From Paraspadella gotoi (lineage: Eukaryota; Animalia; Chaetognatha), in the NCBI GenBank assembly GCA_051294375.1, contig CM119264.1, positions 19,475,590 through 19,539,589 on the forward strand: DNA of 64,000 nt, in the 5' to 3' direction. The translations under genes and the position numbers were made by a program. The notes below the pieces were generated by a model. That model did no database searches, was not told where the DNA came from, and worked only from the letters and a program-made list of their open reading frames with translations. The number at the start of each line of letters is the position of its first letter. Within the stretch, counting starts at the first letter, position 1. Below, piece by piece: positions 1 to 64,000 of this stretch.

Positions 1-377
1 TCTCTTCTTATCTCGACGAAGGATGGAAGGAAAGCGTCATTCCAACGCAGCAGCCGAAACCCGAAAGCGAAATAACGAGCCGCTCGGAACCGACTTTGTG
101 TCGCTTCAATGACCCCACAGACCTTCCAGCCCGGCCGCGATTCCATTAAACTATTAGGCTGTACCAAAAAGCTACAATTTTTGCTAACGACTACATCAAG
201 AAAATTACATATATGTATGTTCCTGAAGACAAGATTTACATTGTGAGAAAAACTCACTGACTGACTGACATTGTTTTCATATATCTTTTATTAATAATAT
301 TATTCTTAACAGAGAAAAAAAAACTGTTGACATTTGGAACGCCTACCGAGACCCCCATTCCCCTCTTTCGATCTCAC

Positions 378-572
378 CTGATGACGTTGCCGCACTTGTA
401 AATGCCGGCGTCGTCATAGTCCACGTTCTTAATCTGCAGGACGTAATGATGCAGCCCCTGGCGCCAAAAGTTGAACTTTGACCTGTCGACGGTCCTGTCG
501 AAGGCGTCGTCGCCCAACGAGATGAACTTTTCGAAGAGGATCCCCGACAGCTTGATCCACACCGGAGGTCGC
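378..572 (-). CDS. Internal exon of an immunoglobulin-superfamily protein (C-F strands of an Ig domain)
   Basis: Bounded by ttccAG acceptor and GTGAG donor; translates RPPVWIKLSG...HYVLQIKNVDYDDAGIYKCGNVI with Ig hallmarks W(C strand), LxIxxVxxxDaGxYxC. Next exon is probably at 158 (tacAG, giving ..SLIV* with stop at 146-148) or at 150 (open to the window edge). Upstream exons are unresolved. Confidence 0.85.
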
Positions 573-1906
573 CTGGAAACGTTTGAGAGGGGATGGAACG
601 ATCAGTGTGGAAAGAGTCAGGTTTTGTCCGATGGGCTGTGGCAATGTGGTATGAAGGTATGTATCGATATTTGGCTCGGTTTTTTTAGTAAATCCAGATA
701 CCACAACCATACGACAGGTCTTCGCAAACTACTATTTTGTTGCATAATAACTTTTTCTCTTTTCAGTATAAGTTTCAGTTTATAACTGGAATTGACTTGG
801 ATGACGAATTGCGTCGAAATGGCGAAGGCGATGGGCTGATGGGGAGACCCAAGGCGTTGGGTTTAAAGAGTATAAAGAAAGAATAATAAATGAGGTTAAA
901 AGGTGATGAAATGGGGGATAAAAGGAAGATATATAACTTTAAGGAAGTAGAGCGCTAAAAAAATTAGGAGAAAAAAAGAATCGTATGATAAAGAAAGGAG
1001 GAAAAAAGAAAAATGACAAAGTGAGGGGAATGAGTTAATTGGTAGAATTATCACAGAGTAAAGTGAATTATAAATTGTAAACTAATGAACACCCACCATT
1101 CGATGAAAAATCGATGCGATATCGTCTTCAACTCTTCAGCAGAATTTTACAAAAACAGACGGTCTCTCAATGCAACGTGAACATCAACATTTTTTTTTCG
1201 TTTTGATTTTTATTTGTATTTACTATTTTTTGAAATTTTTTTAAACATACTTATGTTTTCCTTAGGTCTTCACGCTTCACGTTAAAAAAGTAATTTCTCT
1301 TTTAGTTTCGCGTCGACGACTTTATTTCATAATGAGAAAACATTATCGCGTCTTATATTACTCTCCATTTTTGCAGTATAAGAGTTTGATACGAGATTGA
1401 TTGAGAATAATGACGAAAATCCCAGAAAAAAAGATCAAGTTGAAAGAAAATCTTCGCGTTTTTTCGTCGTCTTTTCTCTTTTTTTTTCCACCTCCCTTTT
1501 TTCCTTTCTCAAAGTTTCAAGAAAAAGAATCAGATATTATCTTTTGAGAAAAAGATATTTTCACGACCTAAATTTTTTAAAATATTGTTTACGAAGCATG
1601 AATTTAAAGACGAATAAACTTCTCTAACTCCATATTACAATTTTTCATTGACTCTCTCTTTCCTCAACCCTGACGCCTAATTCCTTTTCGCTCTCCTGGC
1701 GGCCGTTTTTGCAGTCTGTTAGATTTCCCACCAGATTTGGTTTTAACCAGTGGTTTTACCATGAGACTTGTTCCGAGCGTTCCAAATGTTGACCTTTCTC
1801 TCTTTCTTTTCATTTTCATCTTAAGGTTAAACGTGATTTTTGATCGTTCTTCATTTTGTTTCTCTTCTGTCTTCAACTAGTTTCTCTCACTCCAAATCTC
1901 TCTCCT

Positions 1907-5232: not shown

Positions 5233-5361
5233 TGAGAGAGTTTATATTGATATTGATATTGTAGAAGTGATGGAGGCCTTAAACCACCAAAGCCTGTCCA
5301 AAGTCAGATAGCTTATTTATTAAATGAATGGATAATTGTTATATTGGTTATACCAATTTCA
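5233..5361 (+). mobile_element. Family E short LTR-like repeat (TG...CA), solo copy
   Basis: Shares gtgatggaggccttaaaccaccaaagcctgtccaaagtcag...taccaatttca with copies at 36686, 37016, 38824 and 56755; starts TGAGAGAG, ends TTTCA, with ATTAAA ~40 nt before the end. Strand inferred. Confidence 0.55.
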
Positions 5362-5595
5362 TAAATTAATAAATTCAACGCTAATGAAAAATTATTTTGT
5401 TTTGTTTTTCATTGTTTTTTAAAAAGTGGATTTCAAAAAACTCATATTTTATCAGATTCTCGTGTCAAGAAGCTGAAAACATCAAGGATTTAGTTTTTAA
5501 TTAGTATTTCCATCTTTTTATAGATTTTTATAGAGAGAGGTGACAATCGTAATGAAAATTCAAAAAAATGTTTCCTGGATCTCTTTTCATTATTG

Positions 5596-6173
5596 TGAAG
5601 AGACAGTAATTATTGTTATATGTTAGTGATAGAACCGTTCAATATAAGCAGTCCCTGAGCTTCGGTTAAGCGCCCCGTCCCTCTTAACTGCTAAGCGACC
5701 ACCGGGCTAGAACCCCAGATCTTTGGGTTGGGAGGCGAATGATTTGCCTCCGGCACCAATGGCCGCTGATGAATGGTTGGTAGATTTTAGTCCACCATAC
5801 ATCCCCCCTGCCGTAGGGAGAAGTCTTTTACGTCTCTTCAGTGAATTGTTGTTTGTTGGTGGAAAGTTCGTCACCATGTTGAAGCATGTCGCCTGAAAGT
5901 GTCGTTGTTGCTGTTGTGTTCGGAAGTCGGGCTCACCAATGAAGAGACAGTAATTATTGTTATATGTTAGTGACAGAACCGTTCCATATAAGCAGTCCCT
6001 GAACTTCGGATCAGGCTGTAACACCATGTTACAGGCAGGTTAAGCGCCCCGTCCCTCTTAACTGCTAGGCGACCACCGGGCTAGAACCCCGGACATTTGG
6101 GTTGGGAGGCGAATGACTTGCCTCTGGCACCAATGGCCGCTGATGAACGGTTGGTGGATTTTAGTCCACCATA
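5596..6173 (-). mobile_element. Family A TRIM (miniature non-autonomous LTR retrotransposon) with tRNA-like module in the LTRs, full-length copy A1
   Basis: Direct repeats 5596-5801 (30-bp internal deletion) and 5940-6173 (outer two bases missing). On the minus strand: LTR..CA-T-TGGTGAGCCCGAC (PBS, 5926-5938), internal region, GGGGGGA (PPT, 5802-5808), TGTATGG. Flanked by ATTG (5592-5595, 6174-6177), a candidate 4-bp TSD. No retrotransposon coding sequence. Confidence 0.85.
6068..6140 (-). ncRNA. tRNA-derived module inside the family A LTR (not a functional tRNA)
   Basis: 73 nt: acceptor stem GCGGCCA/TGGTCGC, degenerate box A (TGGTGCC.GAGG), anticodon-like loop CT-CCC-AA, box-B-like GGTTCTAGCCC in a CCGGG/CCCGG stem. 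The anticodon stem is unpaired. Equivalent modules at 5694-5766, 48267-48339 and in the 21888-22545 copy. Confidence 0.7.
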
Positions 6174-6336
6174 ATTGCTTATTTTAAAAAAGAACTAAAA
6201 AATTGAAAACTGACTGTTTGTAAAAAAAATATGATATGTAGAGAATAAAATCTGAAGCATCAGGGTTGAGCCCTAGTTCCTAGTTATGAAATTGCTTTAG
6301 TTTTTTTTTCAGCATTTTTTTTTTATGCGGGCATTT

Positions 6337-19077: not shown

Positions 19078-19531
19078 TCTACGATGATACGTACGAACCA
19101 CACAAGAGTAGATTTTGCCATCCTTTGCTTCATACAAAGAGAGTGGTAACAAAATTGTTTTCGTCTTGATACTAAATTACAAGAATACTTTTGTGAATTC
19201 GCTAAGATATACGAAGAATAAATAAAGCGTAAAGTGAAAGGGAAAATCAATTAGTGGGTTGGTTTGAGGAGGGGAGAAAAGCGAGAGAGTCGGCCGCGAC
19301 TTGGTGACGATAGGATGTCTGGGTCAAATTGATCAATTCTCATTGAGTCCTGAGAGGCTGTGTACTACACAATGTGTAGTGGGTAAATCTTTTGAGATCT
19401 CATCTGCTCAAAACTGTGAGGTTAAAAGACAAGGAATTGAAAATTAAATTTAAAAAATCTCACGCCATCTTAAAAACATTGTAAAATGTAATAAACGAGT
19501 TCCAGTTAGGAAGAATTGAGGGTTAAAGTTT

Positions 19532-20682
19532 AACAAGCTTGAGCGAACAATGTCGGATCTGCCCACGATCATTAGCGGTAATTAATTAATTAATAAATAC
19601 AAACTAATAAACTAAAATAATAATTTAATTAATAAATTAATTAATTTGATTTGAAATGTTTGTTTTTAGATCTTTTCGTCATTGACCATGACAGAAGCAA
19701 CGACGATGATGATGGCGACGACGATGATGGCAACGACGACAATAATGCCGATAACAACTTACTTTATTGATTGATTAATTGATTAAATAATTAATTAATT
19801 TATAAATAAATTGATTGATTGAATAATTAATTAAAGATAACTAAATAAATTAATTCATTGAATAATTAATTGATTGATTAATGAATAATGACTGATTAAT
19901 TAATTATTAACCAATTAATTGATTAATTAACTGATTAATTAATTAATTAATTAATACATTTTGCATTTACATTTAATATAAAAGGAAAAAGAAGCATAAT
20001 CAATTTTTTCCATTTAAACTCATTTCCACTGAAAGATATTTTGTTACCTTGCGTTGGGTCACTCTTTTTTAGTCATTTAGGTTGACCTTACCTAACCTTA
20101 TCTTTTCACCGTTCTAGTCGCTTTCTTGTGGCTTTCTTTCGGCCTATTCCATCAGAATCATTTTTAAAGATAAGATCGGCCGTCTGGAACCGTAGTTTTT
20201 ACAGATCCAAGGATTTATTACAAACATTTTTTCGACTTTTCATTGATTTGACATGGATTTATCTCTACAAAAATACAAATAATTCACAATTTATTCTACA
20301 TTTTTTGACGTTTTCTTTACGCTTTGAGATTTAGTAAAATACTACGAAATCCTTGCTCATTGTCAATATCTGTTCATTTTCTACACAGACGATTCTATCA
20401 AAACTTGATTTCCAGCTTATTCACACATTTTCCTACCCACACACAAAATTTCATTCCAATCCATCCCTCCAATCACGAGCAATTGGAGTTTTTTGCTAAG
20501 GTGGGACGAACGGACAGACGTACGGACCGACGGACATCGTTTTTTTTTTTGCATAATTTATGATAATTCGATGTTCTGACATAATATAAGTGAATGCCCG
20601 ACAAGATTGAGGGAGCGGACTGACGGACCGACAAAGTGAATTATAGAGTTGGGATCTGCTGATGAGCAGATCCGACTAAAAA
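19532..20682 (-). mobile_element. Family D HINE/DINE-1-like non-autonomous Helentron element
   Basis: Subterminal inverted repeat gtcggatctgc/gcagatccgac, terminal hairpin gatctgct-gatg-agcagatc, GTCY-type microsatellite (gacggacagacg), (TTAA)-rich core, T-rich ends; homologous to 55079-55922 and 60073-60617. Confidence 0.8.
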
Positions 20683-21887: not shown

Positions 21888-22545
21888 TGAAGAGACAGTT
21901 ATTATTGTTATGTGTTAGTGACAGAACCGTTCAATATAAGCAGTCCCTGAGCTTCGGATCAGGCTGTAAGACCATGTTACAGACGGGTTAAGCGCCCCGT
22001 CCCTCTTAACTGCAAGGCGGCCACGGGGCTAGAATCCCGGACCTTTGGGTTGGGAGGCGAATGACTTGCCTCCGGCACCAATGGCCACTGATGAATGGTT
22101 GGTGGATTTTAGTCCTACATACATGCCCCCCTCCCGTAGGGAGAAGTCTGTTGCACTCTTAGTGATTGTTGTTTGGTGGAAATGTACGTCAAAGTTTAGG
22201 CATGTGCCTGATTGTGTTGTTGGCGGAACGTGGCATCACCAGGTTTGACCGGGCTGCGCCTTGCAAAGTAGTGTACTTGCTTGTTGTGTCGGAAGTCGGG
22301 CTACCAATGAAGAGACAGTGATTATTGTTACGTGTTTACTAGAACAGAACGTTAATATAATCAGTCCTGAGCTTCGGATCAGGCTGTAAGACCATGTTAC
22401 AGGACGCGGGTTAAGCGCCCGTCCCTCTTAACTGCTAGGGCGGCCACGGGCTGAACGAGCGTAAGCATTGGTCGGGGGCGAATGACTTGCCTCCGGCACC
22501 AATGGACGCTGATGAAAGGGTTGGTGGATTTTAGTCCACCATACA
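21888..22545 (-). mobile_element. Family A TRIM, full-length copy A2
   Basis: LTRs 21888-22123 and 22308-22545 (TG...ACA on +); PBS and PPT positioned as in A1; right LTR is indel-rich; no TSD seen. Confidence 0.85.
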
Positions 22546-29992: not shown

Positions 29993-31667
29993 ATTGGCAC
30001 CAGCATTTATTAAATATTGTATGACTATTTCTTTAAACATCTTAACTTAACAAAGTTAAAAGATAAACANNNNNNNNNNTCTTGTTTAATTGGCAACAGC
30101 ATTTATTAAATGTTGTATGACTATTTCTTTAAAAAATAGTTAAAAGATAAACAGGAAAACAAGTCGTTTTTTATTCCGCGTAGAAAGAAAAGAAATAAAA
30201 GTGAGAAAGCCAGCGAAGTGTCGGCCGAGAGAGAGAGAGGTATTAAAAAAGAAAGAATCGCCGGCTCAAACGGTGGAACCCCCACCCGCCTCCGTTGCCC
30301 TCTATGCACGTATTTTTCTTGTTATCTGAGAGAAACCTTACCAACGGCCGGCTTAAGCAGAGATGAGGAAGGCAGAAAGAATCGGAGGAGAGGAGAGAGA
30401 GGAGGAGAGAGGAGATGGGTAGAGAGACGGAGAGAGAAGACGAGAGAGAGAAGAGGAGAGAGGTAAGGAAGGAGATAAGATGGCATCATTTTGCGGTGAC
30501 AGGCGAAGGCAGGCGACGAGAATCTTAATTAACTCACAGGCAAAAAAAGGAAAGAGGGAGTGGTCCGGGCAGGGAGACGAAGGGAAATATTGTTCCAGCG
30601 GTCAGGAGAAACGACGATTAGAGTCGGAACGGAGGAGGGGGGGGGGAAACGGATGATAGGTCATGACTAGGAACCGATTTTCTGCCCAACTCACTCCTTA
30701 AGGAACGACGAATTATTGAAAGAAAAAGTTATAAAAAAAGAATTTATGAGATCCATTCTTTTTTTTTGCTCGTGTTTTTTTTTTTCATTATATTTTTTCC
30801 TTCTTGTTCTTCTTCTTGTTAGTTTTTCATCTTGAACCTTTTCTCTTATGTTTTTTCTAAATTGGTTTTGTTTAAACTATTTACTTAAAACTTTTATCTC
30901 AGTTAAACTAGTTTCAATTCGTGTTTTTTCTCCCATATATATATATTTTTTATTCTTTTCCTTTCTTTCTTTTTATCTTTTCTCTTTAACTTTGTACTTT
31001 TTTCCTCTCTTTCTTTTTTCTTCCATGGTTTCAGACGTGGCGCCAGAACGTCCCGCCGTCACGCGGCACGATTCCTCCTTTGGGAATTTTCCTTTGCTTA
31101 ACCCCTCGCCACATTTGGACCTCCTACTACCCAATTTCCTTCGCTGGAAAATCGGAACACGGAAATTTGAGGCCTCTTCAATCCACATTTGTCACGTAAT
31201 GATGAGTCGAATTAATACCCATTTTAATATATTTTGAAAAGTTTTAGATAGACAAATTGTCATTACTTGGTCTATTAAAGTTCCAGAAATAGGGTCACTC
31301 CTGACTATTAATGAAATATACATTTAAATCCCCATATAATCCCGCGTAAATTTTTTTTCAAAAACCGAACTTGTAAGATAGAATTTAACTTTGAAGCCTT
31401 TAAAACCTTCCTCTTTCAAGCTGGCTTTCTGTCCAGCTCCACTCCGTTCATCACCCTCTTCTTCCCAGCTCTTCCAGCCTCTTTGAAATTGCTCTCTTCC
31501 TCTGAGCCAAAAAAAAACCTCCGGACGAATTAAATATTTAAAATCCCAACGTTCGTCATTTGTCATAAAAGGAAGAAGATTTAATTCGAAAAAACTTTTT
31601 TGCGGTCAAAGAATAATAGCGTGAACCATTTGCAATCGAACCCTGAAAAAAATTTATCATTTTCTAA

Positions 31668-32556
31668 TTTTTTTTTTCTCGGAAAGCTAAGAAATGACCC
31701 ACAAAATGAGGCGCCGTTTTCGAGAATCGTAACAGACGTGCATTTTTTGGAGAAAGGACTTGGCGTTTGTTTTCGTCGAAACAAAAAGCGTTCTTCTCAC
31801 TCAGTGAAAAATTGGCAATTGACATAATTGAATGCGACATAACAAGAGAAGCAAGCTGCCCTGGCGCATTTCACTTTCTGCCGAGAATCGATATAATTTT
31901 TCGTAGTTGCCAAAGGTTATTCGAGCCGTTTTTTTTTAAGATTTACTTAAACATATAAATGAGAGATAACCAAAAAATTTAGATATTATTTACGATTCTG
32001 ATGATCTTATAAACAACTTACGAATACTATTTGAATGACCAATTAAAATGGACATCTTTATGGTCTCCCTTATTTTTTTAATATTAATATGGTTTTTACA
32101 ATTATTTTCTATTCTGTTTTTTTAAGCAACAAATACTTTTTTATTCTTATGTATTTTTCAAACATGTTCATCATCCTCATCTTTCGCTTTAACTGACAAA
32201 CATACCTGCGATAATGTCAAGGTTTTAATTTTTCGACACGTATTTACTGCAGAATCCTGGAATGGCAGGGGACGACGCAATAAAGAAATAGATTGGTTTC
32301 TTCGTAGAATTTCTTTTAATATCCGAAGAGTGTATAATTTAATAATTTATCGGTAGACATTGTGAGAATCTGACTCCCCTCAAGAAAAAACGGGGGATTT
32401 GTGACAAAAAATAAGAGACTAAACACATAGTATTGGTTCGGAAGCTTTCCACAATCCGTCTTTGGACATGTCTTCTTTTCAGAAAGGCGACTCTTCTCTC
32501 TCTCTCATCTCTCCTCTCTCCTCTCTCCTCTCGTCTCTCTCTCTCTTCTCTCATCG

Positions 32557-32589
<33 letters not shown>

Positions 32590-35321
32590 CATTTTCTATT
32601 TCTATCTCTTTCCTTCCCTCTCATGCTTTTTTCCTCTTAACATAGAAACCAATTTTGTCCCCCTTTTCTTCACATTCTCTCCTAATTGAATTTGCAGCCA
32701 TAAGCGTCTCAGTCTGGGATGAATTATAATGAGCCTCTTTTCTTGGGCAGGGGGGATATGGTGACTCCAGGTGGTATGGGTAAGTTGTGGGCGGGGTGTT
32801 GGCAAATGATGGTCTAATATTTCTTCGAACTCACGTAATTGACTTGTATCGTTTTATTTTGTCGCAAACTTGCGATTTAAAAACAGAAAATTTTTTGGTT
32901 CTTCTCTCAAGAAAAGACTAAGACATGTATAGTTTAAAATTTTGACGGATAGATGGGTTAAATTTTAAAACCAAGATACAATTCAAATAAACTTGTTTTA
33001 CAATAAAAATACGAAATATTTCGTATGATTAATTTTAAAAAAATATAAATTCGGTGAAGAATGGTGCACTTCTTTTTTTTTTTTAAATGGTACGAGACTG
33101 TTTTTGTTCACTTACGGGAAATTTAAAATCTGACAATTTTCATGTATTAAAATTTAAACTTTCCTCCCCCAGGCGATTTTTTTGATTCGAATTCGGTTCA
33201 ATATCGGACAATACACCCGACGGTAATATTAAAAGCAAAATTTTTAATTTCCTTAATTTCCTTAATAACGGAAAAATTCGACATGTAATCGCCGTCGGTG
33301 ATATGAACGATGGCGGCTCGCTCTCGTTTTCCCCGATTCCTCGTCTTTTCTCACCCTTTCCGCGTTTTAAGAAAGAGTTTCTCCGCTGAATGTGATGACG
33401 GATCGATTTTCTTGCTAACGAAATTCTCCTCTCCTCTCCCGTTTTCTTTTTTTCCCTTCTTTGTTTCTTCTTCTTTTCCGTCTTACGGGCGAACGAGCGC
33501 TCGTTTGATCTTTTTTTCTTACCAATAGCTTTTATTTTTTGTTTTTTTTCTTTCTTTTTTCTCTTTCTGTATGGGCTTTTTTTTTTTTCATTTTGCCTTT
33601 CTTNNNNNNNNNNNNNNNNNNNNNNNNNATTTTTTTTTTCTCGGAAAAGCTAAAGAAAATGACCACAAAATGGAGCGCCGTTTCGAGAATGTAAAGACGT
33701 GCATTTTTGGAGAAAGGACTTGGCGTTGTTTTCGTCGAAACAAAAAGCGTTCTCTCTCACTCAGTGAGAAAATTGCATTGACATAATTGACTGCGACATT
33801 AACAAGAGAGCAGCTGCCCTGGCGCAACTTTCACTTTTCTGCCGAGAATGATTAATTTTTCGTAGTTGCCAAAGGTTATCGGAGCCGTTTTTTTTTTTTA
33901 AGATTTACTTATAACATTATAAATGAAGAGATACCAAAATTTAGATATTTTTACGATTCTGATGATCTTACAATTACGAATACTATTTGAATGACCAATT
34001 AATGGACATCTTTATGGTCTCCCTTATTTTTTTAATATTAATATGCGTTTTTACAATTATTTCTTATTCTGTTTTTTAACAACAAATACTTTTTATTCTT
34101 TATTATTTTTCAAACATGTCATCATCCTCATCTTCGTCGCTTTAACTGACAAACATACTGCGATAGATGTCAAGGGTTAAGTTTTTCGACACGGGAATGG
34201 CAGGACGACGCAATAAAGAAAATATGATGGTTTCTTCGTAGAATTTCTTTTTAATACGAAGAGTGTATAATTTATAATTTATACGGTTAGACAATTGTGA
34301 GAATCTGACTCATTCAGAAAAAAAGGGGATTGTGACAAAATAAGAGACTAAACACATAGTATTGGTCGGAAGCTTTCCACAATCCGTCTTTGAGACATGT
34401 CTTCTTTTCAGAAAGGCGACTCGTTCTCTCTCTCTCTCTCTCTCTCTNNNNNNNNNNNNNNNNNNNNNNNNNNNNNNNNNNNNNNNNNNNNNNNNNNNNN
34501 NNNNNNNNNNNNNNNNNNNNNNNNNNNNNNNNNNNNNNNNNNNNNNNNNNNNNNNNNNNNNNNNNNNNNNNNNNNNNNNNNNNNNNNNNNNNNNNNNNNN
34601 NNNNNNNNTCTCTCTCTCTCTCATTTTCTATTTCTATCTCTTTTCCTCCCTCTCATCTTTTTTCCTCTTACTAGAACCCAATTTGTCCTTCTTCAAACAT
34701 TCTCTAATTTGAATTTGGCAGCCATAAGCGTCCTCAGTCTGGGAATGAGATTAAATGAGCCTCTTTCTTGGGGCAGGGGGGATATGGTGACTCCAAGGTG
34801 GGTAGGGTAAGTTGTGGGCGGGGGTGTGGCAAATGATGGCTCCTAATATTTTCTTCGAACTCACTAATGACTGTATCGGTTTTTATTATGTCGCAAACGC
34901 GATTTAAACAGAAACTTTTTGGTTCTTCTCTCAAGAAAAGACTAAGACATGTATAGTTTTAAAATTTGACCATAGATAGGGTTAAATTTTAAAACCAAGA
35001 TACAATTCAAATAAACTTGTTTTACAAATAAAAATAACGAAATAATTTTTCGTATGATTAAATTTTAAAAAAATAAATAAATCGGTNNNNNNNNNNTCCT
35101 CGTCTTTTCCCGCGTTTTAGAGAAAGAGTTTCTCCGCTGAATGTGATGACGACGATTTCTTGCTAACGAATTCTCCTCTCCCTCTCCCTTTTTTCTTTTT
35201 TCTTCTTTTTTCTTCTTTTCGTCTTACGCCCGCTCGTTTGATCTTTTTTTCTTACCAATATGCTTTTATTTTGTTTTTCTTTCTTTTTTCTCTTTCTGTA
35301 TGGCTTTTTTTTTCATTTTGC

Positions 35322-35330
<9 letters not shown>
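31668..35330. repeat. ~1.9-kb tandem duplication (31668-33603 and 33629-35330), probably an assembly artefact
   Basis: Copies are separated by an N gap; the second contains more gaps and differs mainly by 1-bp indels. Confidence 0.8.
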
Positions 35331-36685: not shown

Positions 36686-37175
36686 TGAGAGAGTCTTGTT
36701 TGAAAGCTTGCAGGGAACCTGCATGTCATTATCTTGTAATTAGTGATTGGAGCTTAAACCACCAAAGCCTGTCCAAAGTCAGGGCAAGATAGCTTATTTA
36801 TTTAAATGAATGGATTAATTTTTATATTGAGTGGTACCAATTTCATAAAATTTCAGCTCCTGGTAATTTGATGCTAGTGCGGAGTACAATAAAGTATTCC
36901 CCGATTCTATACTTAAGGAGGTGCGTCTTTTTCATACAATTGAAACATTCTTTGAAATATTTATCCACTTCATTGATAGGGAAGCCAGGTAACTCTGGGA
37001 GTGAATAAACGGGACTGTGAGAGAGTCTTGATTGAAAGCTTGCAGGGACCTGCTATGTCATTATCTTGTAAGAGTGATGGAGGCCTTAAACCACCAAAGC
37101 CTGTCCAAAGTCAGGGGCAAGATAGCTTATTTATTAAATGAATGGATAATTTTTATATTGGTTGTACCAATTTCA
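36686..37175 (+). mobile_element. Two family E LTR-like repeats (36686-36845, 37016-37175) around a 170-bp spacer
   Basis: ~160-bp TG...CA direct repeats; purine-rich aaacgggac precedes the second; no clear PBS or TSD. Confidence 0.55.
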
Positions 37176-38823
37176 TCTGATATTTCTCATAAGCAAGTAC
37201 AGTCCCGTTTTGAATTTATCAATCTTCCTATTTTTGGTTTGACTCCCAACTTTTTAGTACAGATTTTTTATAGTAACTGTCATATTACTCCTGTCTTGTT
37301 GTCTTTCCTTATTAGCCTTGTAGTAATAATCGACTTTTTTTCGTACTTTCCTTGCGATTTGACATTTGGTTTCTTAGTTGGCCTTTGTGTAAACTTAGTA
37401 TCCTCGTGGTAGGCCTCTTTGATCATGTTCTCAACCCCTTAAGCCATCGTTCTTCACGAGCACTTCAATCGTCTTCTTGCATTCAGGCGATCTCGCTTCC
37501 CGGCCAATGACCACGCCTTTCTTCCGGACGATCCCAGTGACGGGCGACCCATCTCCCAGCTCCGTCCCCCGGCCTGTTTGACAACCTCCCCCCTGTCTCC
37601 TCTTCGTCCTCGACATCATCCATCAAAATTAACTCGTTTTTTCTTCACATTCGACCATCATCCTGACGGGGGGGGATAGGGGGCGGGGCCTTGGGCTCAA
37701 CTCTCAATCTCATTGTTACTTTTAACTGCATGAGCGGGGACTCGGGAGGGTATTGCTAAAGATAAATTTTTTGACAGAAGAAAAAATGACGAAAATATTT
37801 GCGACATGATGATTTCTGTTCCTTACTTTACCTAAATTTTCAGAACTCCAATTTTAACTAAAGTTGAAATATTTAGAAACGAAACAGGAGGTATAATAAT
37901 GAGGGAATTGGGATTGAGATTGAGCTATGTAAATAGTAACAAAACATTTTTAAAGAAAACCTAACTGCTATTTTTGGAGAAGACTAGGTAAAAAAAAAAA
38001 GACAACGAATGGCGCAAGGCCAAGGGTCGGAGAAAAATAATTAGCATAAAAGGCGACGGTGAAAAATTACAAAAATAGTAAGAACAGTAAATTGACGGAG
38101 AATAATAGAGAGTAATAGAGTTGTAAGTTAAGAAATTTAATAGATGCCTTCGAATGGAAATGCAGCTTTCTACAATAACTTTGCCTAATGCCTAAAGATC
38201 GCAGTAAACTTTAGGAATGGAGTCGTACAGGCAACGTAATACGTAGTAAAAGGCTGAGAATAAAAAGCATCAAGCTTACACGAAAGAGCCTCTCGTTCCT
38301 GTGGGCATTGTTTCGACTTTCCAGCAACCAGAAGAGAGAACGCTAATTTCTTAAACCGTTTGCACGACTCTCCGTGGAGATTACAAAAACGACGAAAACA
38401 CCAGCTCCTGGAGAAGAAGGAAAAATCTCAAATGGGAAAACAGGGAAAGCGATAAGAGGGCCACAATAAAAAAACAAAACCAAAAGGAAAAAAAAAACCA
38501 CTAAAAAAAAACATCGCTCCTTCATGGATAAAACCGGAGGACAAGCAGCGCGTTGTTTCCTTCAGGGCGAACTAAACCGAAAATAAACAACACCGCCGAC
38601 AACAACGACGACGTCGAAAACGACCGCCGGCGACGACGAAACAATCCAACGATTCGAAAAAAAGGGATAGCAATTAGCAATCCTAAAGTGTTATACGACA
38701 GTTTCTTGATCGCAACTCTAGATATTTACCTATAAAACACATATTTAAATAAAATAATAATATTTATTTATTTTTTTTATTTATTATTATTTTTTTTTAT
38801 TTATTACTTTTTTAAAATTTATG

Positions 38824-38870
38824 TATTTATTAAATAATGGATAATTTTTATATTGGTTGCACCAATTTCA
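38824..38870 (+). mobile_element. Family E 3' fragment
   Basis: tatttattaaat..tggataatttttatattggttgcaccaatttca matches the family E end. Confidence 0.55.
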
Positions 38871-39432
38871 TAATATGCGTAATAATTAAAATAGCTTTAA
38901 AAAGAGTTATAAAGCAGTTTCTGTTCACTTTCAATATTATTCATTTATGTATTCATTTATTAAATATTTTATATTACATCACCTGCCTGTCAGATATTAA
39001 TCAAAATAATATTTTTTATCCCAGTTATAGAATATTTAAAATAGCATTAAAGGAAAAAGTCGATGATAGGATGGATCAATAATAAGATAACAGTTAAACA
39101 AACTAACCGACGGGCAAAAAAAGTTACCTATGGAGCTGCTCCACGACCAATACCGAAGCTTTTAATAAGCGAAGAAAAAAGGAAAAAAAGGGAAAAAATG
39201 GGCAATAAAGATTAGAGAAGGAAGCAAAAGAAAGTTTTGGGTGAGTCGATGTCAAAAATGGGTCAGATAAAAAGAAAAGAAATAAATTCATGCAAAAACA
39301 AAAGGAAAAAAAGAATTTTTAATAGATCGAAAATCAAATGCGAAATATTTTTTTTTTTCAATATCAAGAGCGAATCAAAATTTCGATATGATGTACGTCT
39401 AGTGGAAAGGAAGAAAGGAAGAAACAAAAAAG

Positions 39433-39700
39433 TGTGGATAAGGCGCTAAGCGCGCTGAAGTATGCAACTTCTTTAACCCACGGAACGGGTCCTAGGCTGT
39501 GAACCAGGCTTGAGGGTTTTCCAGACCCCCGGGTTTTCCAGGCTCCCAAGGCTGATCACGGCCGTCCTCCCGCTCTCGCGCAGGGTAGTTACCTAATGCA
39601 ATGGTCATTAGCTGATGGTATTCGTCAATGAGCCACCGGGTGACGACAGAAAGTGTCATGCTCTTATAGGCGGGGTGAACGTGTTGCAATGCCGACAACA
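39433..39700 (-). mobile_element. Family B LTR-like element with partial tRNA-like module (B1)
   Basis: Homologous to 57950-58210; minus strand: CCTATAAGAG, then CACCCGG-TGGCTCATTGA (box A-like), ending GCGCCTTATCCACA. Confidence 0.65.
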
Positions 39701-43358: not shown

Positions 43359-43522
43359 TGAGGAGACAGTAATTGTTATGAGTTATTGACAGAATCGTTC
43401 AATATAATTAGTCCCTGAGCTTCGGAACAGGCTGTAAAACCGTGTTACAGGAGGGTTCAGCACCCCGTCCCTCTTAACTGCTAGGCGACCACCGGGATAG
43501 AAACCCGGACCTTTGGGTTGGG
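43359..43522 (-). mobile_element. Family A LTR fragment A3, truncated at a MITE
   Basis: Matches the first ~165 bp (on +) of the family A LTR. Confidence 0.8.
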
Positions 43523-48138: not shown

Positions 48139-48592
48139 TGAAGAGACAGTCATTATTGATAAGAGTTAATGACAGAACCGTTCAATATAAGCAGTCCCTG
48201 AGCTTCGGATCAGGCTGTAACACCATGTTACAGGCGGGTTAAGCGCCCCGTCCCTCTTAACTGCGAGGCGGCCACCGGGCTAGAACCCCAGACCTTTGGG
48301 TTGGGAGGCGAATGACTTGCCTCCGGCACTAATGGACGCTGATGAACGGTTGGTGGATTTTAGTCCTCCATACATCCCCCCTCCCATAGGGAGAAGTCTA
48401 TTGCGTCTCTGTTGTTGTTGGTGGAAACTGCGTCACCAAGTTGAGGCAAGTCGCCTGATGTGTTGTTGGCGGAAAGTGCATCGCCAGGTTGAGGCATGTC
48501 GCATGTTCGGAAGTCGGGCTCACCAATGAAGAGACAGTAATTATTGATAAGTGTTAATGACAGAACCGTTCAATATAAGCAGTCCCTGAGCT
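48139..48592 (-). mobile_element. Family A TRIM copy A4 (complete 3' LTR, internal region, 66 bp of 5' LTR)
   Basis: LTR 48139-48374, PPT GGGAGGGGGGA on minus immediately adjacent, PBS 48513-48525, partial LTR 48527-48592. Confidence 0.85.
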
Positions 48593-51707: not shown

Positions 51708-51792
51708 TGAGAAGACAGTAATAATTGTTATGAGTTAGTGACAGAATCGTTGATTATAAGCAGTCCCTGAGCTTCGGATCAGACTGTAACAC
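51708..51792 (-). mobile_element. Family A LTR fragment A5
   Basis: 85-bp match to the same LTR end as the other copies. Confidence 0.75.
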
Positions 51793-55078: not shown

Positions 55079-55922
55079 TTTTTAGTCGGATCTGCTGATA
55101 ATAATAATAATAATAATAATTCACTTTGTCGGTCCGTCGGTCCGCCCCCTCAATATTGTTGGGCACACACTAATATCATATCAGAACATCGAATTATGAT
55201 AAATTATGCAAAAAAAATTATGTCCGTCTGACTGTCTGTCTGTCTGTCTGTCCTTCCGTCCGTCCGTCCGTCAGTCCGTACCACTTTAGCAAAAAACACC
55301 AATTACTCGTGATTGGATGGATGGATTTGAATAAAATTTTGTGTGTGAGTAGGGAAGTGTGTGATTGAGTTGGATATGAAGTTTCGATGGAATCGTCCGA
55401 GTGGAAATGAGTTTAAATGGAAAAAACAAAAAAATATATTTCATTATTTGAACACCTATTGCTCATGAGTGGATGGGGCGATTGACCTTGAATTTTGTAT
55501 GTGGGTAAAAAAGTGTGTGATTAAGCTGGAAATCAAGTTTCGATGGAATCGTCTGAGTAAAAATGAGTTTAATTGAAAAAAACAAAAAACCTGTTTCACT
55601 AATATTAATTTAAATGTAAATGCAGGATGTATTAATTAATCAAATAATCAATCAATTAGTCAATTAATTAATCCATAATTAATTAATAAGTCAATCGTTA
55701 TCGGCATTATTCTCATCGTCATTGCTTTTGTCGTGGTTAGTGACGAAAAGACCTAAAAACAAACATTTGGGATCAAATTAATTAATTAATTGCCTAATTA
55801 AATAATTAATTAATTTATTGCCTAATTAATAAATAAATTCACTTGAATAATATAATTATTAATTAATTAATTACCGATAATGATCGTGAGCAGATCAGAC
55901 ATTGTTTGCTCAAACTTGTTTT
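55079..55922 (+). mobile_element. Family D HINE/DINE-1-like element
   Basis: ttttagtcggatctgc start, (GTCT/GTCC)n, internal ~160-bp duplication, gcagatcagacattgtttgctcaaacttgttt end. Confidence 0.8.
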
Positions 55923-56754
55923 ATTTATATTTATACGTCATAAAGTAAAAAAAAGAATAAGTGATACGGATTTTATAAGTTTTGAATCCCTACCCAGTAC
56001 ATTGTACATAGTTGAAAAGTTTCAATGGTTTTAGTTTTGTAATTTAAATTTATTACGGAAAGTACAAACTTTTTTGTCGGAGTCAAAAATATATATAATA
56101 AATAAATTAAAGAATTAAAGTCAATTGATGATTCTACGAAAAAGAATATTCTCAAAACCAATTTCACGGATTTCAAATGGGAGTGAAATCAAAAGATCAA
56201 TTACAGTTGGTAAATCCTTAGTTATAGCGAGTTCAGATTTTGCACCCTGGTAAAAAAGTCGCTGATGTTTCTTCTTTTTCAACTCCAATACTTCAGCTTG
56301 CCTAGTTTTTTAGTGATGCCATGGTGTAATTTTAAAAAAGGGAATAGTTGAATTTGAAGAGAACCTTGGTGTGAAAAGATATATTTCTATAAAAAAAAAA
56401 GGAAAAAAAAAATAGACATAGGAGTGTCTGGGCAATCAAATTGTCAAGAAGGTTTTCACAACTTCAATGAAAATTTTTTTTCATTTTATAGTTATAAAAA
56501 TTTTAATATTAAAAAAGTTAAGAAAAGAGCAATCATCTGGCAAAAGATAAACGAATAAACGAATAAACGAATTATTTTCCAAGCTTGTTAGACATTAAAC
56601 TAATATATGTAAAGAAATTTAAAATATTTGGCCCAATTTTTTTCACGATGAGTTTAAAATTAAAGTCTCAAATGGGAGAAGGAAAAAGTTCCAAAAAATC
56701 GTTTGCAAGACAACTATGGTGTACGTAATGTATTCTCAATTTGTTATATATATT

Positions 56755-56879
56755 TGTTATGTTATTATCTTGGAAGAGTGATGGAGGCCTTAAACCACCA
56801 AAGCCTGTCCAAAGTCAGGGACAAGATAGCTTATTTATTAAATGGATGGATAATTTTTATATTGGTTGTACCAATTTCA
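56755..56879 (+). mobile_element. Family E LTR-like repeat
   Basis: Near-identical to 37060-37175. Confidence 0.6.
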
Positions 56880-57077
56880 TAGGAACGTTGGGGAATTTTT
56901 TAACTCATGAAAAGATCAAATATCAGTCATAGTCAGTCAGTTAAGAGTAATAACAACTCGTTTCATTTCACTCTTATTTGAAATCCGTGTATATTCAACA
57001 TGAAAAAATTCGCAATCTGTAAACGCCTTCATTTCCTAGATTGCATCGCGAAAATGAGTGGTATATAGCGTACAGTC

Positions 57078-60000
57078 ATGACGTCGGCTTCCCCCAAGGG
57101 GGAAATGACAAGTGCAACAGCCCCCGGACTAAAGTTCGGCGTGGTAAGACATGGACCAATGAACCTATGAAGATAACTAAAATCACAATTCTTTTTTTTT
57201 CTCTATGTCCTATTTGCTTTTTCTCACAGGCCCCCATGAATGCCGCTCATGGGGTCGTTGCCACCATCAAAACCGGAACTGATGCTCACCATGGGGTCCC
57301 CCAGCCCCTGGAGGCTCAGATTGTGAATATTTCTTCCCTCTCGTTTGATGTGCCGCTTGAAAATGCATGTGTTAATGAAGGATCAAAGTAAGTAAAGCGT
57401 GACGTAAGAATCGTGATTTTAATTTTACGTTACATGTAAAGATACAAATCTAGTTTTTTGTTTTGTTTTGTTCTATCAGACATACTCTGCAATGCCGCGT
57501 TCGTGTAAACCATAAAATGCCAAAAATTGAATGGTATAAGGATGGTCTCATTATTAATAACCCTGACTACAAAATAAACCAATCTCCTGATGGAACGTGT
57601 TCTCTTACGATTGAAGAAACTATGATCGACGACTCTGCCAAGTCAGTCAAATTGTAGTTATCCTGGGGCCCTACTATATTTTAACCGTTTAAAAAATTAT
57701 CCATATATATTCTTATCAGGTACACCTGTCGAGCAACTTTTGCTCCGGGTGGCGAGGCCGAAACCTCCGCAATGTTAGTGGTCAGCGGTGAGTACTTTCT
57801 TTGTACGAATACGTTATTTCTCAATTTATTTTCGTGATGTCATTTTCTCACTATCTTTTCAGATCCACGTAATCCTGCCACAATTATTTCGCCAATGATT
57901 AAAGAAAATAAGTCTGCCAATGCACAGGTAAGAAATCGTGAGTTAACATTGTGGATAAGGCGCTGAGTGGGCTGAAGAGTGCTATCCGCAACTTCTTTAA
58001 CCCCTCTAGCAGCCATGGAACGAGTCCTGGGCTTGGAACCAGGCTTGAGGGTTTTCTAGGCCCCCAAGGCGGTTTACGGCCGTCCTTACGCTTCCCTCAG
58101 TTTAAGGACCCGGTTGGGAATGAACCCGGTACCTAGTGGACTTGAGCTGATGGCTTTACTCAATGAGCCACCGGGTCACAAATGATGGTGTCATGCTTAA
58201 AGGCGGGGATTTCAATTTTTTATATTTACAGACTACCGAAATGACAAATGACAATATTCAAATGAAAGAAACGGCTTCCACAGCCTCTGAAATGAAGGAA
58301 GAAGATTCCCCGAATTCTAAGTCAGTTTCACTAAAGAAAAGCGACCAAGCGACTTCAAAAAAGGTTAGCCTTCTCAGTTCTCATTTCTGATACGGTTCCC
58401 GAAGAGTTTTGACTTGAAGTTTGTGAAGGGGGGCGTGGCCACTGGGTTCTCCTGTGAGAAGGGTAATTTTTATGGAGCCTCTTTTCTTGCTTATTTTTAG
58501 GTGGTTCTATTGGACAATGGAACCACGTTGCAGACTTCCATATCTTCTTCCAATTTTGAGTCAACGTCTTCATCTAACGTGATGAACGGACCAATTTCCC
58601 TTGCAGGTAGGACTTCATCGCGGTCACGTCAATCTGCATATCATTGGTCTTACTCATTTTTTTATCTTATCTGTATCGTTGCGTCCACAATCGCACCCAT
58701 TTCTTTTCGTTAGGCCCAATGCCGCAACATGGTATACCTGCCGAGCACTTGCTTCCAAATTTCGAAAACATGGCATCAGCGATGCAGAAAACCGCGATGT
58801 CAATGCAGTCTCAGTTGCAAGCCCAAGTACAAGCTCAAATGCAGTCACAGATGAACGCGATGCAGAGCAACGTTTCATCATCTTCACCGCAGGCTCGTCC
58901 CGAAAAGGACTTCCCGTAAAACGGGAAATATTTGTTAGATTGTTTTAGCCGACAGTTAAATAAATTTTTAATGAAAGTGCCAAAATTACTTGCTTCACTA
59001 TTTTATCTTTTTAAATTTTATAATATTAGTTTTAAAATTGTCATATTTTTATAATATTTTTGTTAATATTTTTTAAATTTTCTGTTTGTTTTTTTTCTGT
59101 TCTATTTTTTATTTCTGGGATGGGGATGTTAGTGTGTTGCCTTCTGGAAATAGAGGGAGCATCTGTACAACACAAGATTAAAATACTTTCTTGCAATGTC
59201 ATTAATGAGATTATTAATGAGATCTTAAAAAATCTAGGAGGCTGATGTCACAGGTAATACAAATTTACTAGTAAATAAAAACGAAGAAATTTTTTTAGGT
59301 TTTACATTAGAGACCAATTTTTCACATGATTTCGTATTTTTAATTTTTTTAATTCTATTTTCAATGGAGGTGTTGCTCAAATGAGGACATCGACATTGTC
59401 GACCCGACGATGTCCTTATTCGAATCCCACATGTATTAAAAACAAAATATTATAAAATGTGGACCAAGTCATGTTAAAAGAAACATCCTAATTCGTTCGT
59501 CAATAAATTTAATCTTCCAGATGATGTCGTCCGCTTCTTCGCAAAAGATTATTGAAAAGACACAAAATCAATTCGCCGGCCAAATGAATATGGCGCCGAA
59601 AGCCATTACGCAGCAATCTGTTATTAACAAAGAATTGACACAAAAACTTCGACTTGCCACGCCAGTCCCAAATGGTTCGTAGAAACATATAGAGCATGCC
59701 CGTAAAAAATAAAAAATAAAAATATATTTATGAAATTAGTACAACCGAGACAAAAACAGTATTACAATAAAAACAATATTTAACAGTTATGAGGATCACT
59801 TTAAGCTACACAGTAGTTAACAATACAAATAAATACTTTTCTGAAAATAATTCTTTCCCAGGATCATCCATCAACATAATGTTTTAAATTGTTTCTAATT
59901 TTAGCGGAAGTTGTGGCTCCCGATTTCGTGAAGAAAATAGAAAATAGCGAGGCTTCCGTCGGTTCATCCGTCACTTTCGAAGCCGAAGTCAGTGGATCAC

Positions 60001-63000: not shown

Positions 63001-63834
63001 TAGGAATTCCTGTGAAAGAGTCCAAAGACATCAAACTGCTTTTCGAGGGCGACGATTGCACTCTGTTGATCAAAGAATGTTATCTTGAAGATGCAGGGTC
63101 ATACACACTCAGAGCGGTCAATCCACTAGGTGTCGTGGAAGAAACTGCCACTCTCACAGTCGAACGTAGGATTTGAAGTTTTTTGTTTTATTTTTTTTTG
63201 TCTTTGTTTTTTATTTTTTTAATTTTCTGGGCTGTGGGGAAATTGGATTAAACAAAGGACCACTAATCTCTTAACTAAAGAGATGTCGCTTTCGCAGAGC
63301 TCTCTATTAAACAAATGATTTGGAGTCTTTTACCAAAAAAACAAAAATGAAAAAAAAAAAAAAAACTGGAGAAAACTTCAAAATTAGAAAGGGGCTATCA
63401 CTAAGAGAAAAAAATATATGTTGAAAACATACAATAATAATTAAATAAAGGAAATACAAATTTGAACTTTTAAAAATAAAAACTCACAAACTTTAAATAA
63501 ACAACAAACTGTAGACGAAGTCACAGAATAATAAATATATATTCATGTTTTCGCTTTAAAATGATAATACATGTGTAATTGTGTGTACATTGGGGCGAAT
63601 TACAACGCCACATTTGCTTATACGTATTGTCCTCCAGCGTTAAGCACGACGAGCGAACTCAGCGATTCCCAGATGTCGCTGTGTCCACCGCGATTTACGA
63701 CGCCATTGGACGACGACGTGGAGGCGGTAGCGGGATCGTCTCTCCGCCTCGACATCGTCGTCGAGGGCGATCCGCTGCCGGAAGTAAGGTGGTCAAAAGA
63801 TGGAGTCTTGCTCAAGAATGGCAACAACCTCAAG
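57078..63834 (+). CDS. Titin/kettin/sallimus-like multi-Ig (I-set) muscle-type protein, 5' part, continues beyond the window
   Basis: 18 phase-consistent GT-AG exons: 57078-57143, 57230-57387, 57480-57641, 57720-57787, 57863-57927, 58232-58363, 58501-58606, 58714-58915, 59238-59253, 59521-59674, 59905-60019, 61394-61530, 61894-61962, 62087-62226, 62421-62570, 62711-62828, 63004-63165, 63638-63834. Four complete I-set domains and a partial fifth (PKIEWYKDG..CSLTIEETMIDDSAKYTCRA; APDFVKKIEN..GSPQPTITW..DKGRFMCKATNIGG; DTGIYTCVLKNARG; GVPEPECIWY..EDAGSYTLRAVNPLG; GDPLPEVRWSKDG), no signal peptide, S/Q/M-rich linker after Ig1. Exact orthology not determinable by eye. Confidence 0.92.
57950..58210 (-). 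mobile_element. Family B LTR-like element (B2) inside intron 5 of the titin-like gene
   Basis: Homologous to 39433-39700 with the same terminus (minus ...CCTTATCCACA); contains the tRNA-like module 58106-58177. Confidence 0.7.
58106..58177 (-). ncRNA. tRNA-derived module inside family B element (not a functional tRNA)
   Basis: GACCCGG TG GCTC ATTGAGTA AAGC C ATCAG CTCAAGT CCACT AGGTA CCGGG TTCATT CCCAA CCGGGTC C: perfect 7-bp acceptor stem, box A-like TGGCTCATTG, box B-like GGTTCATTCC; anticodon stem unpaired. Confidence 0.75.
60073..60617 (+). mobile_element. Family D HINE-like element, 5'-truncated, intronic
   Basis: Matches 55372-55920; ends gcagatccgacattgtttgctcaaacttgtt. Confidence 0.8.
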
Positions 63835-64000
63835 GTGAGAAGGAGAAAAAGTATGATTAGGAGGAGAAAACCGATGAAACCTCTTCCCTCTTCATGAAAC
63901 ACATTATGTCTTTGTCCTATGGTCCTATCCACCTTTTTTCGACACTTCGAATCTTACCATTGAAACATTTGACACTTGGTCTTTGACCTTTTACATCCCT

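What the first reader, a model, noticed from the sequence alone, without database searches (positions are those of the whole stretch)
5596..6173. Miniature LTR retrotransposon (TRIM) whose LTRs carry an internal tRNA-like Pol III module
Seen: 236-bp TG..CA direct repeats around a 140-185-bp non-coding core, PBS TGGTGAGCCCGAC one base after the LTR, G-rich PPT abutting the other LTR, candidate 4-bp TSD ATTG, and five copies in 64 kb (5596, 21888, 43359, 48139, 51708). About 35 nt into the LTR (minus strand) lies a 73-nt tRNA-shaped segment with a paired acceptor stem, box A/B-like motifs and TCGCCTCCCA resembling tRNA-Gly(CCC). Known: the PBS matches the tRNA-Trp PBS TGGTGACCCCGAC at 12/13; plant Cassandra TRIMs carry 5S in their LTRs, and as I recall tRNA-bearing TRIMs with 4-bp TSDs in animals were recently named Helenus. 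Inference: a SINE/LTR hybrid, transcribed by Pol III and mobilised by a Gypsy-type partner; probably a new family or host lineage for this rare class.
Basis: partly seen in the sequence, partly recalled or inferred. Interest (0 to 1): 0.85.

Follow-up and report, generated by a model that had tools for sequence, protein, structure and literature searches.

The report
Helenus-type mini-retrotransposon with tRNA-derived LTRs
This is a real, abundant, gene-less miniature LTR retrotransposon of an animal whose terminal repeats carry a decayed tRNA copy that likely serves as its promoter; it fits the Helenus class described in 2024, so it is a new family of a known kind.

Summary
The element is real: 578 bp on the minus strand, two LTRs (234 and 204 bp), a 140-bp non-coding core, a primer-binding site matching tRNA-Trp at 12/13, a short polypurine tract and a 4-bp target duplication (ATTG). 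Corrections: the LTR runs TA..CA in element sense, not TG..CA; only 2 of the 5 loci are complete. The tRNA-like module fails standard tRNA finders but beats chance: the LTR copies rank 2-5 in the window with a tRNA covariance model (best 18.4 bits, E 0.01) and keep 21 of 24 conserved tRNA positions (0 of 5000 shuffles). Box B is good; box A lacks A14 except in a minor variant. The isotype (Gly) is unresolved. It meets the published definition of Helenus (Kojima 2024); no sequence homology to the published families was seen. Pol III transcription and the Gypsy partner are inferred, not shown; the host lineage was not identified. Unexplained: a four-way-junction domain behind the module, where two published Trp-primed Helenus appear to carry a hammerhead. 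The scan has found Helenus-type elements before on other DNA (27 notes, at least 11 genomes).

The parts
5592..5595 (.). Target-site duplication ATTG, left copy
5596..5799 (-). 3' LTR, 204 bp, with a 30-bp deletion inside the second structured domain
   Evidence: 193 of 204 aligned bases identical to the 5' LTR
5693..5766 (-). tRNA-derived module in the 3' LTR
   Evidence: tRNA model 15.4 bits, E 0.065; ARAGORN at relaxed threshold 87, 0 of 500 shuffles
5800..5939 (-). Non-coding core, 140 bp
   Evidence: no Pfam match in the three overlapping reading frames tested
5802..5809 (-). Polypurine tract AGGGGGGA (11 purines in the copy at 48139), followed by TG and then the LTR; the TG is absent at the integrated end, as a 2-base trimming by integrase would give (inferred)
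5926..5938 (-). Primer-binding site, 12 of 13 to the tRNA-Trp PBS; one T between it and the LTR
   Evidence: (Fig. S2 of PMC10886601: tRNA-Trp, Gypsy-32_NVi, Helenus-2_SyJa)
5940..6173 (-). 5' LTR, 234 bp, TA..CA in element sense
   Evidence: (loose ends at 5940 and 6173)
5990..6066 (-). Second structured domain: predicted four-way junction (closing stem and three hairpins); no known RNA family; function unexplained
   Evidence: fold z -2.2 and -2.3 in two copies; not tRNA-like in sequence; no Rfam hit
6068..6140 (-). tRNA-derived module in the 5' LTR (LTR positions 34-106): 7-bp acceptor stem, T-arm, broken D and anticodon stems
   Evidence: 18.4 bits, E 0.01; 21 of 24 conserved positions; ARAGORN relaxed
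6079..6087 (-). Box B-like GTTCTAGCC (one mismatch, position 57)
   Evidence: consensus recalled; GGTTC conserved in Helenus
6121..6132 (-). Box A-like segment; C in place of A14 in all window copies, A14 present in a minor variant
   Evidence: variant at 6126 and 48325 in 3-13% of summed depth in 4 of 4 runs
6152..6171 (-). Terminal 7-bp hairpin at the LTR start (U3); positions 6151-6144 are predicted to pair with 5985-5978 and enclose both domains
6174..6177 (.). Target-site duplication ATTG, right copy
21888..22543 (-). Second complete copy, 186-bp core, flanks CACA/CACC
43359..43522 (-). LTR fragment
48139..48592 (-). Copy with a whole 3' LTR, 154-bp core, exact PBS and a truncated 5' LTR
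51708..51792 (-). LTR fragment (U5 end)

Best explanation
It is a non-autonomous miniature LTR retrotransposon (TRIM) of the Helenus/TRIMp3 kind, whose LTR carries a decayed tRNA gene that likely acts as an internal RNA polymerase III promoter and which is likely copied by the enzymes of a Gypsy element. Shown: LTRs, PBS, polypurine tract, 4-bp duplication, many dispersed copies, tRNA derivation of LTR positions 34-106, and no T4 run on the sense strand. Inferred: Pol III starts near LTR position 34, reads through the rest of the LTR, the PBS, the core and the second LTR, and stops at the first T-run in the flank (28, 81 and 43 bases past the three copies). A tRNA-Trp-like primer starts reverse transcription, the 200-base repeat allows strand transfer, and integrase trims two bases from each end, which leaves CA at one end and TA at the other. 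A CsRn1-type Gypsy (tRNA-Trp PBS, 4-bp duplication) is the likeliest helper. The module is not a working tRNA.
For: Anatomy. Sharp, shared ends in 4 runs from 3 studies and 21,062 contigs laid from one run. LTR depth about four times core depth, as solo LTRs would give (not a copy number). 4 of 11 pair-specific variants are shared by the two LTRs of one element, although such pairs are 3 of 28. tRNA derivation: LTR modules rank 2-5 of 9 matches over 128 kb, beside a SINE head at 18.8 bits, next background 8.2 bits; 21 of 24 conserved positions, 0 of 5000 shuffles, and the five modules are the top five of the window; ARAGORN score reached by 0, 2, 5 and 9 of 500 shuffles; alignment to real tRNAs beats 300 of 300 shuffles in 3 copies. 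A minor variant has the canonical A14. Published definition, animal 4-bp duplications and the same PBS offset. CsRn1 features.
Against: Standard ARAGORN and Rfam RF00005 do not detect the module. E-values from my model are rough, the copies are one family and so one test, and 1 of the 32 training tRNAs was found with a pattern taken from the module. The majority box A lacks A14 and the TRGCY motif of most Helenus, so most copies may be weak promoters. Lack of T4 runs is not beyond chance (p 0.16-0.28). Only two complete copies could be checked for duplications (4/4 and 3/4). The PBS has a fixed mismatch to the published tRNA-Trp and the host tRNA was not seen. No autonomous partner was found in the window (240 of 274 selected frames scanned). 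LTRs of one element (93-95% identical) are barely closer than LTRs of different elements (92-93%).
Confidence: 0.72

Rival explanations
1. An ordinary TRIM whose tRNA-derived segment is a dead passenger (an old SINE or tRNA insertion); transcription is by Pol II from the LTR or from host read-through, and the segment is kept only as RNA structure or by hitch-hiking.
For: Degenerate majority box A; scores below all standard thresholds; the middle of the module refolds into a non-cloverleaf hairpin.
Against: Only 33 bases lie upstream of the module in the LTR, little room for a Pol II promoter (direct reading); no variant listed inside box B, and an A14 variant exists (tables show the top 40 rows only).
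Confidence: 0.18
2. A Pol III-driven TRIM whose second LTR domain is a functional processing RNA, such as an unrecognised self-cleaving ribozyme; the element would then replicate like an LTR retrozyme, from cut-to-cut monomers or circles.
For: Predicted four-way junction directly behind the module, z about -2.2. By eye, the two tRNA-Trp-primed Helenus of gall wasps carry a full type III hammerhead at the same place in the LTR. Two common non-CpG variants in the acceptor stem keep pairing on the sense strand only.
Against: No Rfam ribozyme hit; no hammerhead core or twister loop in the sense-strand LTRs, and only loose, inconsistent HDV-like descriptor hits; no compensatory double change in 3 LTRs; stem conservation is not significant once the AT-rich tail is left out (p 0.30); one LTR of the main copy lacks 30 bp of the domain.
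Confidence: 0.07
3. Not tRNA-derived at all: a GC-rich, self-complementary LTR that resembles a tRNA by chance.
For: No standard tRNA finder calls it; the LTR is rich in hairpins.
Against: Four tests against shuffles or window background agree, two of them using sequence only; the equally structured second domain fails the sequence and model tests.
Confidence: 0.03

Closest known systems
Animal Helenus (TRIMp3), Kojima 2024, PMC10886601 (read: main text parts 1-5 of 6, passages of the figure legends; supplement parts 1 and 5-11 of 11, parts 2-4 only searched)
   Same: Short non-coding two-LTR element, sense-strand tRNA-derived LTR segment with GGTTC, PBS to a tRNA 3' end, polypurine tract, 4-bp duplication, solo LTRs; length 578-656 bp within the 311-1263 range. 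TA..CA ends also occur in five wasp families.
   Different: Module far more decayed (no TRGCY, no A14 in most copies); it lies at the LTR's 5' end with about 130 bases behind it and no T-run, whereas most published animal LTRs put it late, often followed by a T-run (by eye). No exact hit for five 9-11-base words of this element in the supplement and no homology by eye outside the generic tRNA part.
Helenus-2_SyJa and Helenus-2_SyUm (Synergus gall wasps; Data S1 and Fig. S2 of PMC10886601)
   Same: tRNA-Trp PBS with the same one-T offset; long LTR (277 bp) with a structured domain behind the tRNA part.
   Different: Their downstream domain reads as a type III hammerhead (by eye); ours matches no known ribozyme. 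No sequence homology seen.
Cassandra and Ajax TRIMs (as described in PMC10886601)
   Same: Small-RNA-derived Pol III promoter inside the LTR of a TRIM.
   Different: They carry 5S rRNA sequence; Rfam found no 5S match here. Ajax makes 5-bp duplications.
CsRn1-clade Gypsy elements (PwRn1, AgCR; PMC2582038, passages read)
   Same: tRNA-Trp PBS and 4-bp duplications; plausible helper.
   Different: Autonomous and coding; no such element was found here, so the link is inferred.
Plant LTR retrozymes (PMC7761336, passages read)
   Same: Non-coding LTR elements with PBS, PPT and a structured LTR RNA, moved by Gypsy enzymes.
   Different: Defined by a hammerhead in the LTR, which is absent here; tRNA-Met primer.

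Membership tests
TRIM | Two direct terminal repeats, total under 1 kb | tested here: met
   578 and 656 bp, LTRs 234/204 and 234/236 bp
TRIM | No protein-coding capacity | tested here: met
   Longest stop-to-stop frame over the element 110 aa; no Pfam match in three frames tested
TRIM | PBS next to the 5' LTR and polypurine tract next to the 3' LTR | tested here: met
TRIM | Target-site duplication of 4-6 bp | tested here: met
   ATTG/ATTG and CACA/CACC in the 2 complete copies; genome-wide test not possible
Helenus | tRNA-derived sequence in the LTR, sense orientation | tested here: met
   below standard thresholds
Helenus | Box B with GGTTC | tested here: met
   Present in 3 of 4 clean modules, one has GATTC
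Helenus | Box A with TRGCY and YGG (most families, not all) | tested here: inconclusive
   T8, R9, G10, R15, G18, G19 present; TRGCY and A14 absent in window copies; A14 in a minor variant
Helenus (animal) | 4-bp duplication and PBS to a tRNA 3' end shared with Gypsy elements | tested here: met
   12 of 13 to tRNA-Trp; host tRNA not seen
Helenus (published lineages) | Sequence homology to a published family | tested here: not met
   Word search of the supplement and reading of the animal consensus sequences; no alignment was run; the class is defined by structure, not homology
TRIMp3 | Working Pol III promoter | not testable with these tools
   Needs 5' end mapping or Pol III ChIP; also unvalidated for published Helenus
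Cassandra / Ajax | 5S rRNA-derived LTR segment | tested here: not met
   No 5S Rfam match
LTR retrozyme | Hammerhead ribozyme in the LTR | tested here: not met
   No Rfam hit; no core on the sense strand of the LTR; the antisense CUGAUGA has no GAAA partner in place
Functional tRNA gene | Intact cloverleaf | tested here: not met
   Anticodon stem 3 of 5 pairs, D stem broken

The most novel reading that the evidence does not exclude
The LTR is a two-module RNA: a tRNA-derived Pol III promoter followed by a four-way-junction domain that is an unrecognised self-cleaving or processing RNA. With the hammerhead seen at the same place in two Trp-primed wasp Helenus, this would define animal LTR retrozymes driven by Pol III, a hybrid of Helenus and retrozyme, here with a new catalytic fold.
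Probability: 0.07. Interest if true: 0.8.

Novelty: new member of a known kind. Interest (0 to 1): 0.42.

Why it matters
Helenus is defined from sequence alone and its Pol III transcription has not been shown. This family is abundant, has no internal T4 run, and has natural A14/C14 box A variants, so it is a convenient test of the TRIMp3 model. It also shows that members can be too decayed for tRNA finders, so the class is probably undercounted. If the second LTR domain is catalytic, it would link Helenus to retrozymes.

Tried and rejected
No whole genome is held, so no genome-wide duplication count, host tRNA check or partner search. Metagenome scan with a 20-base LTR word: 5 hits, all GC-rich bacterial-type DNA with nothing beyond the word. 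Viral scans with a PBS word (5 hits, chance, no RT motif) and an LTR word (0 hits). Expression: no RNA holder listed; the one run guessed as RNA is contigs and shows nothing about transcription. A second tRNA in the downstream domain: relaxed ARAGORN calls it, but sequence similarity is at chance level (100 and 142 of 300 shuffles) and the model misses it. Known ribozymes in the LTR: rejected. The weak Rfam sR38 snoRNA hit (17.6 bits against a cut-off of 50) is taken as chance. Structure under selection: p 0.049 and 0.005 with the AT-rich tail, 0.30 without; CpG variants in stems split 3 to 3 between strands. My first tRNA model had the structure shifted by one column and was not used; the corrected one paired 98.5% of cells. 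Literature: 'Helenus' with 'hammerhead' gave only the Kojima paper, where the word appears in a reference title, and a sugar beet paper seen as a listing only; 'twister ribozyme, retrotransposon, type P5' gave 0 papers. Repbase and Dfam could not be searched.

Full report
Observation. The window is animal DNA: about 36% G+C, many GA microsatellites and intron-split exons of a titin-like I-set gene. No whole genome is held. At 5596-6173 there are two direct repeats, 5596-5799 (204 bp) and 5940-6173 (234 bp), around a 140-bp core. On the minus strand the right repeat is followed by one T and TGGTGAGCCCGAC, and the left repeat is preceded by a purine run and TG. ATTG flanks the element on both sides. 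Four more loci exist: a complete copy (21888-22543, flanks CACA/CACC), a copy with a truncated second LTR (48139-48592) and two fragments (43359, 51708).

Termini. The duplication fits only a right end at 6173. When contigs of four runs were laid on a copy whose LTR continues into the core, they left the element after ...CATA in 89, 45, 81 and 19 contigs, against 5 and 7 two bases later in the two runs where that row was listed. In element sense the LTR therefore reads TA..CA. The TG between the purine tract and the LTR is what a two-base trimming by integrase would remove (inference from the general LTR mechanism). TA..CA ends are known in plants (PMC9804982, passages) and begin five wasp Helenus consensus LTRs, so this is a correction and not a novelty.

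Abundance. Nine runs of one organism, from three studies, hold the stretch. In the best run 21,062 contigs laid on the region, with sharp ends at 5940 and 6173. Summed depth over the LTR was 3.3-5.1 million against 0.9-1.0 million over the best-covered part of the core and 119-248 in unique flank. The tool warns that this is no copy number; I take it only as 'very abundant, with an excess of solo LTRs'. LTRs differ by 5-8% both within and between elements, which suggests an older burst. Four of 11 variants private to a pair of LTRs are shared by the two LTRs of one element, while such pairs are 3 of 28, modest support for LTR-type copying.

The tRNA-like module. Standard ARAGORN and Rfam do not call it. 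At relaxed thresholds ARAGORN calls tRNA-Gly(CCC) at LTR positions 34-106 in 4 of 4 LTRs tested; their scores were reached by 0, 2, 5 and 9 of 500 shuffles. A covariance model from 32 real tRNAs gave 9 matches in the window: a SINE head (18.8 bits), then the four LTR modules (18.4, 16.4, 15.4, 11.8), then background at 8.2 or less. In one ungapped register the module keeps 21 of 24 conserved tRNA positions (list recalled); 0 of 5000 shuffled LTRs reached 21 at any offset, and the five modules were the top five of the window. Global alignment to real tRNAs beat 300 of 300 shuffles in three copies, also without the one tRNA found with a module-derived pattern; the best matches were Arg and Asp, so the isotype is open. 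The copies are one family and count as one test. The anticodon and D stems are broken, so it is not a working tRNA. Box B has one mismatch. Box A lacks A14 in all window copies, but a variant with A14 makes up 12%, 3%, 10% and 4.5% of summed depth in the four runs (the same variant).

Primer and helper. The PBS matches the tRNA-Trp site shown for Gypsy-32_NVi and Helenus-2_SyJa at 12 of 13, with the same one-T offset. The mismatch is present in both intact window copies, which may mean that the host primer differs; it could not be seen. CsRn1-clade Gypsy elements have a tRNA-Trp PBS and 4-bp duplications and are the likeliest helpers. None was found: 240 of 274 selected reading frames gave no retroelement Pfam match.

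Mechanism. The sense strand has no T4 run in 3 of 3 copies, and the first one lies 28-81 bases into the flank. Pol III could thus start near LTR position 34 and read the whole element, giving an RNA with a 200-base repeat for strand transfer. The absence of T4 is not beyond chance (p 0.16-0.28). Only 33 bases lie upstream of the module, which argues against a Pol II promoter. All of this is inferred; no expression evidence was available.

The second domain. The LTR folds better than shuffles (z -2.7). Behind the module, positions 108-184 form a predicted four-way junction (z -2.2 and -2.3), and an 8-bp helix encloses both domains. It is not tRNA-like in sequence and matches no Rfam family or ribozyme motif. 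Evidence for selection on the structure is weak: no double compensatory change in 3 LTRs; common non-CpG variants fall in 3 of 118 paired and 10 of 116 unpaired positions (p 0.049), but the contrast is lost without the AT-rich tail (p 0.30; the variant tables show only their top 40 rows). While reading Kojima's Data S1 I saw that the two tRNA-Trp-primed families, Helenus-2_SyJa and Helenus-2_SyUm, have what reads by eye as a complete type III hammerhead just behind their tRNA part. The paper does not mention it, and a 2020 review says animal retrozymes lack LTRs, PBS and PPT while hinting at insect elements with type III hammerheads.

Comparison. Helenus is defined as a TRIM with a tRNA-derived LTR segment; animal members make 4-bp duplications and are thought to use Gypsy enzymes. 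This element meets each testable point. It shows no homology to the published families by word search or by eye; fungal parts 2-4 of the supplement were only searched, and Repbase and Dfam were not available. The host could not be placed, so a new host lineage is possible but unshown. The scan holds 27 earlier notes on such elements in at least 11 other genomes and none on this sequence.

Verdict. Real, correctly recognised, a new family of a known kind. Interest 0.42; the retrozyme-like reading has about 7% probability and would deserve 0.8.

Noticed in passing
window 37018-37176 (also 36686-36846, 56755-56880, 5233-5363, fragment 38824-38871): A second dispersed repeat of about 160 bp carries a type-P5 twister-like motif on the plus strand (37073-37115; Rfam RF02684 25.8 bits, E 0.0009 on a 181-base stretch, cut-off 37.6). 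Its tail is as deeply covered as the TRIM and ends sharply at 5363-5365. Its ends (TGAGAGAG...TTTCATA) resemble the TRIM's plus-strand ends (TGAAGAG...CCATA), but no target duplication or PBS was seen.
   Followed up: partly
PMC10886601 Data S1, Helenus-2_SyJa-LTR and Helenus-2_SyUm-LTR (outside the window): Both published gall-wasp LTRs read by eye as tRNA-like part plus a complete type III hammerhead (GUC site, 7-bp stem I, CUGAUGA, 4-bp stem II, GAAA, long loop-loop pairing); not remarked on in the paper. They would be animal LTR retrozymes with PBS and PPT. Not computed.
   Followed up: partly
window 57950-58208 (minus) and 39433-39675 (plus): Two diverged copies (66% identical) of a tRNA-headed SINE-like repeat; head at 58103-58177 scored 18.8 bits with the tRNA model.
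   Followed up: partly
window 59880-63894 (plus) and 377-601 (minus): Exons with Ig I-set domains, best solved-structure match titin; shows that the host is an animal.
   Followed up: partly
window 19530-20682, 55079-55932, 60068-60627: Another interspersed repeat family with an internal AT-rich (AATT-type) tandem tract, present in both orientations.
   Followed up: no
window 31667-33603 and 33629-35328: A local tandem duplication of about 2 kb at 81-87% identity, next to assembly gaps.
   Followed up: no
window 36998-37017 and 37196-37210: A perfect 12-bp inverted repeat (AAACGGGACTGT) brackets the twister-bearing copy at 37018, seen by eye.
   Followed up: no
element flanks in runs X1, X2, X3, X9: Majority letters just outside the LTR begin ATAT in 4 of 4 runs, a weak hint of an ATAT target preference (agreement only 0.41-0.46 in an AT-rich genome).
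   Followed up: no
TRIM variants: Many variants sit at CpG sites on both strands, which suggests that the host methylates CpG in repeats.
   Followed up: partly
L090:84-154: A tRNA-Gly(GCC) that looks eukaryotic in type (my recalled impression) in a contig filed under a bacterial MAG; possible contamination.
   Followed up: no
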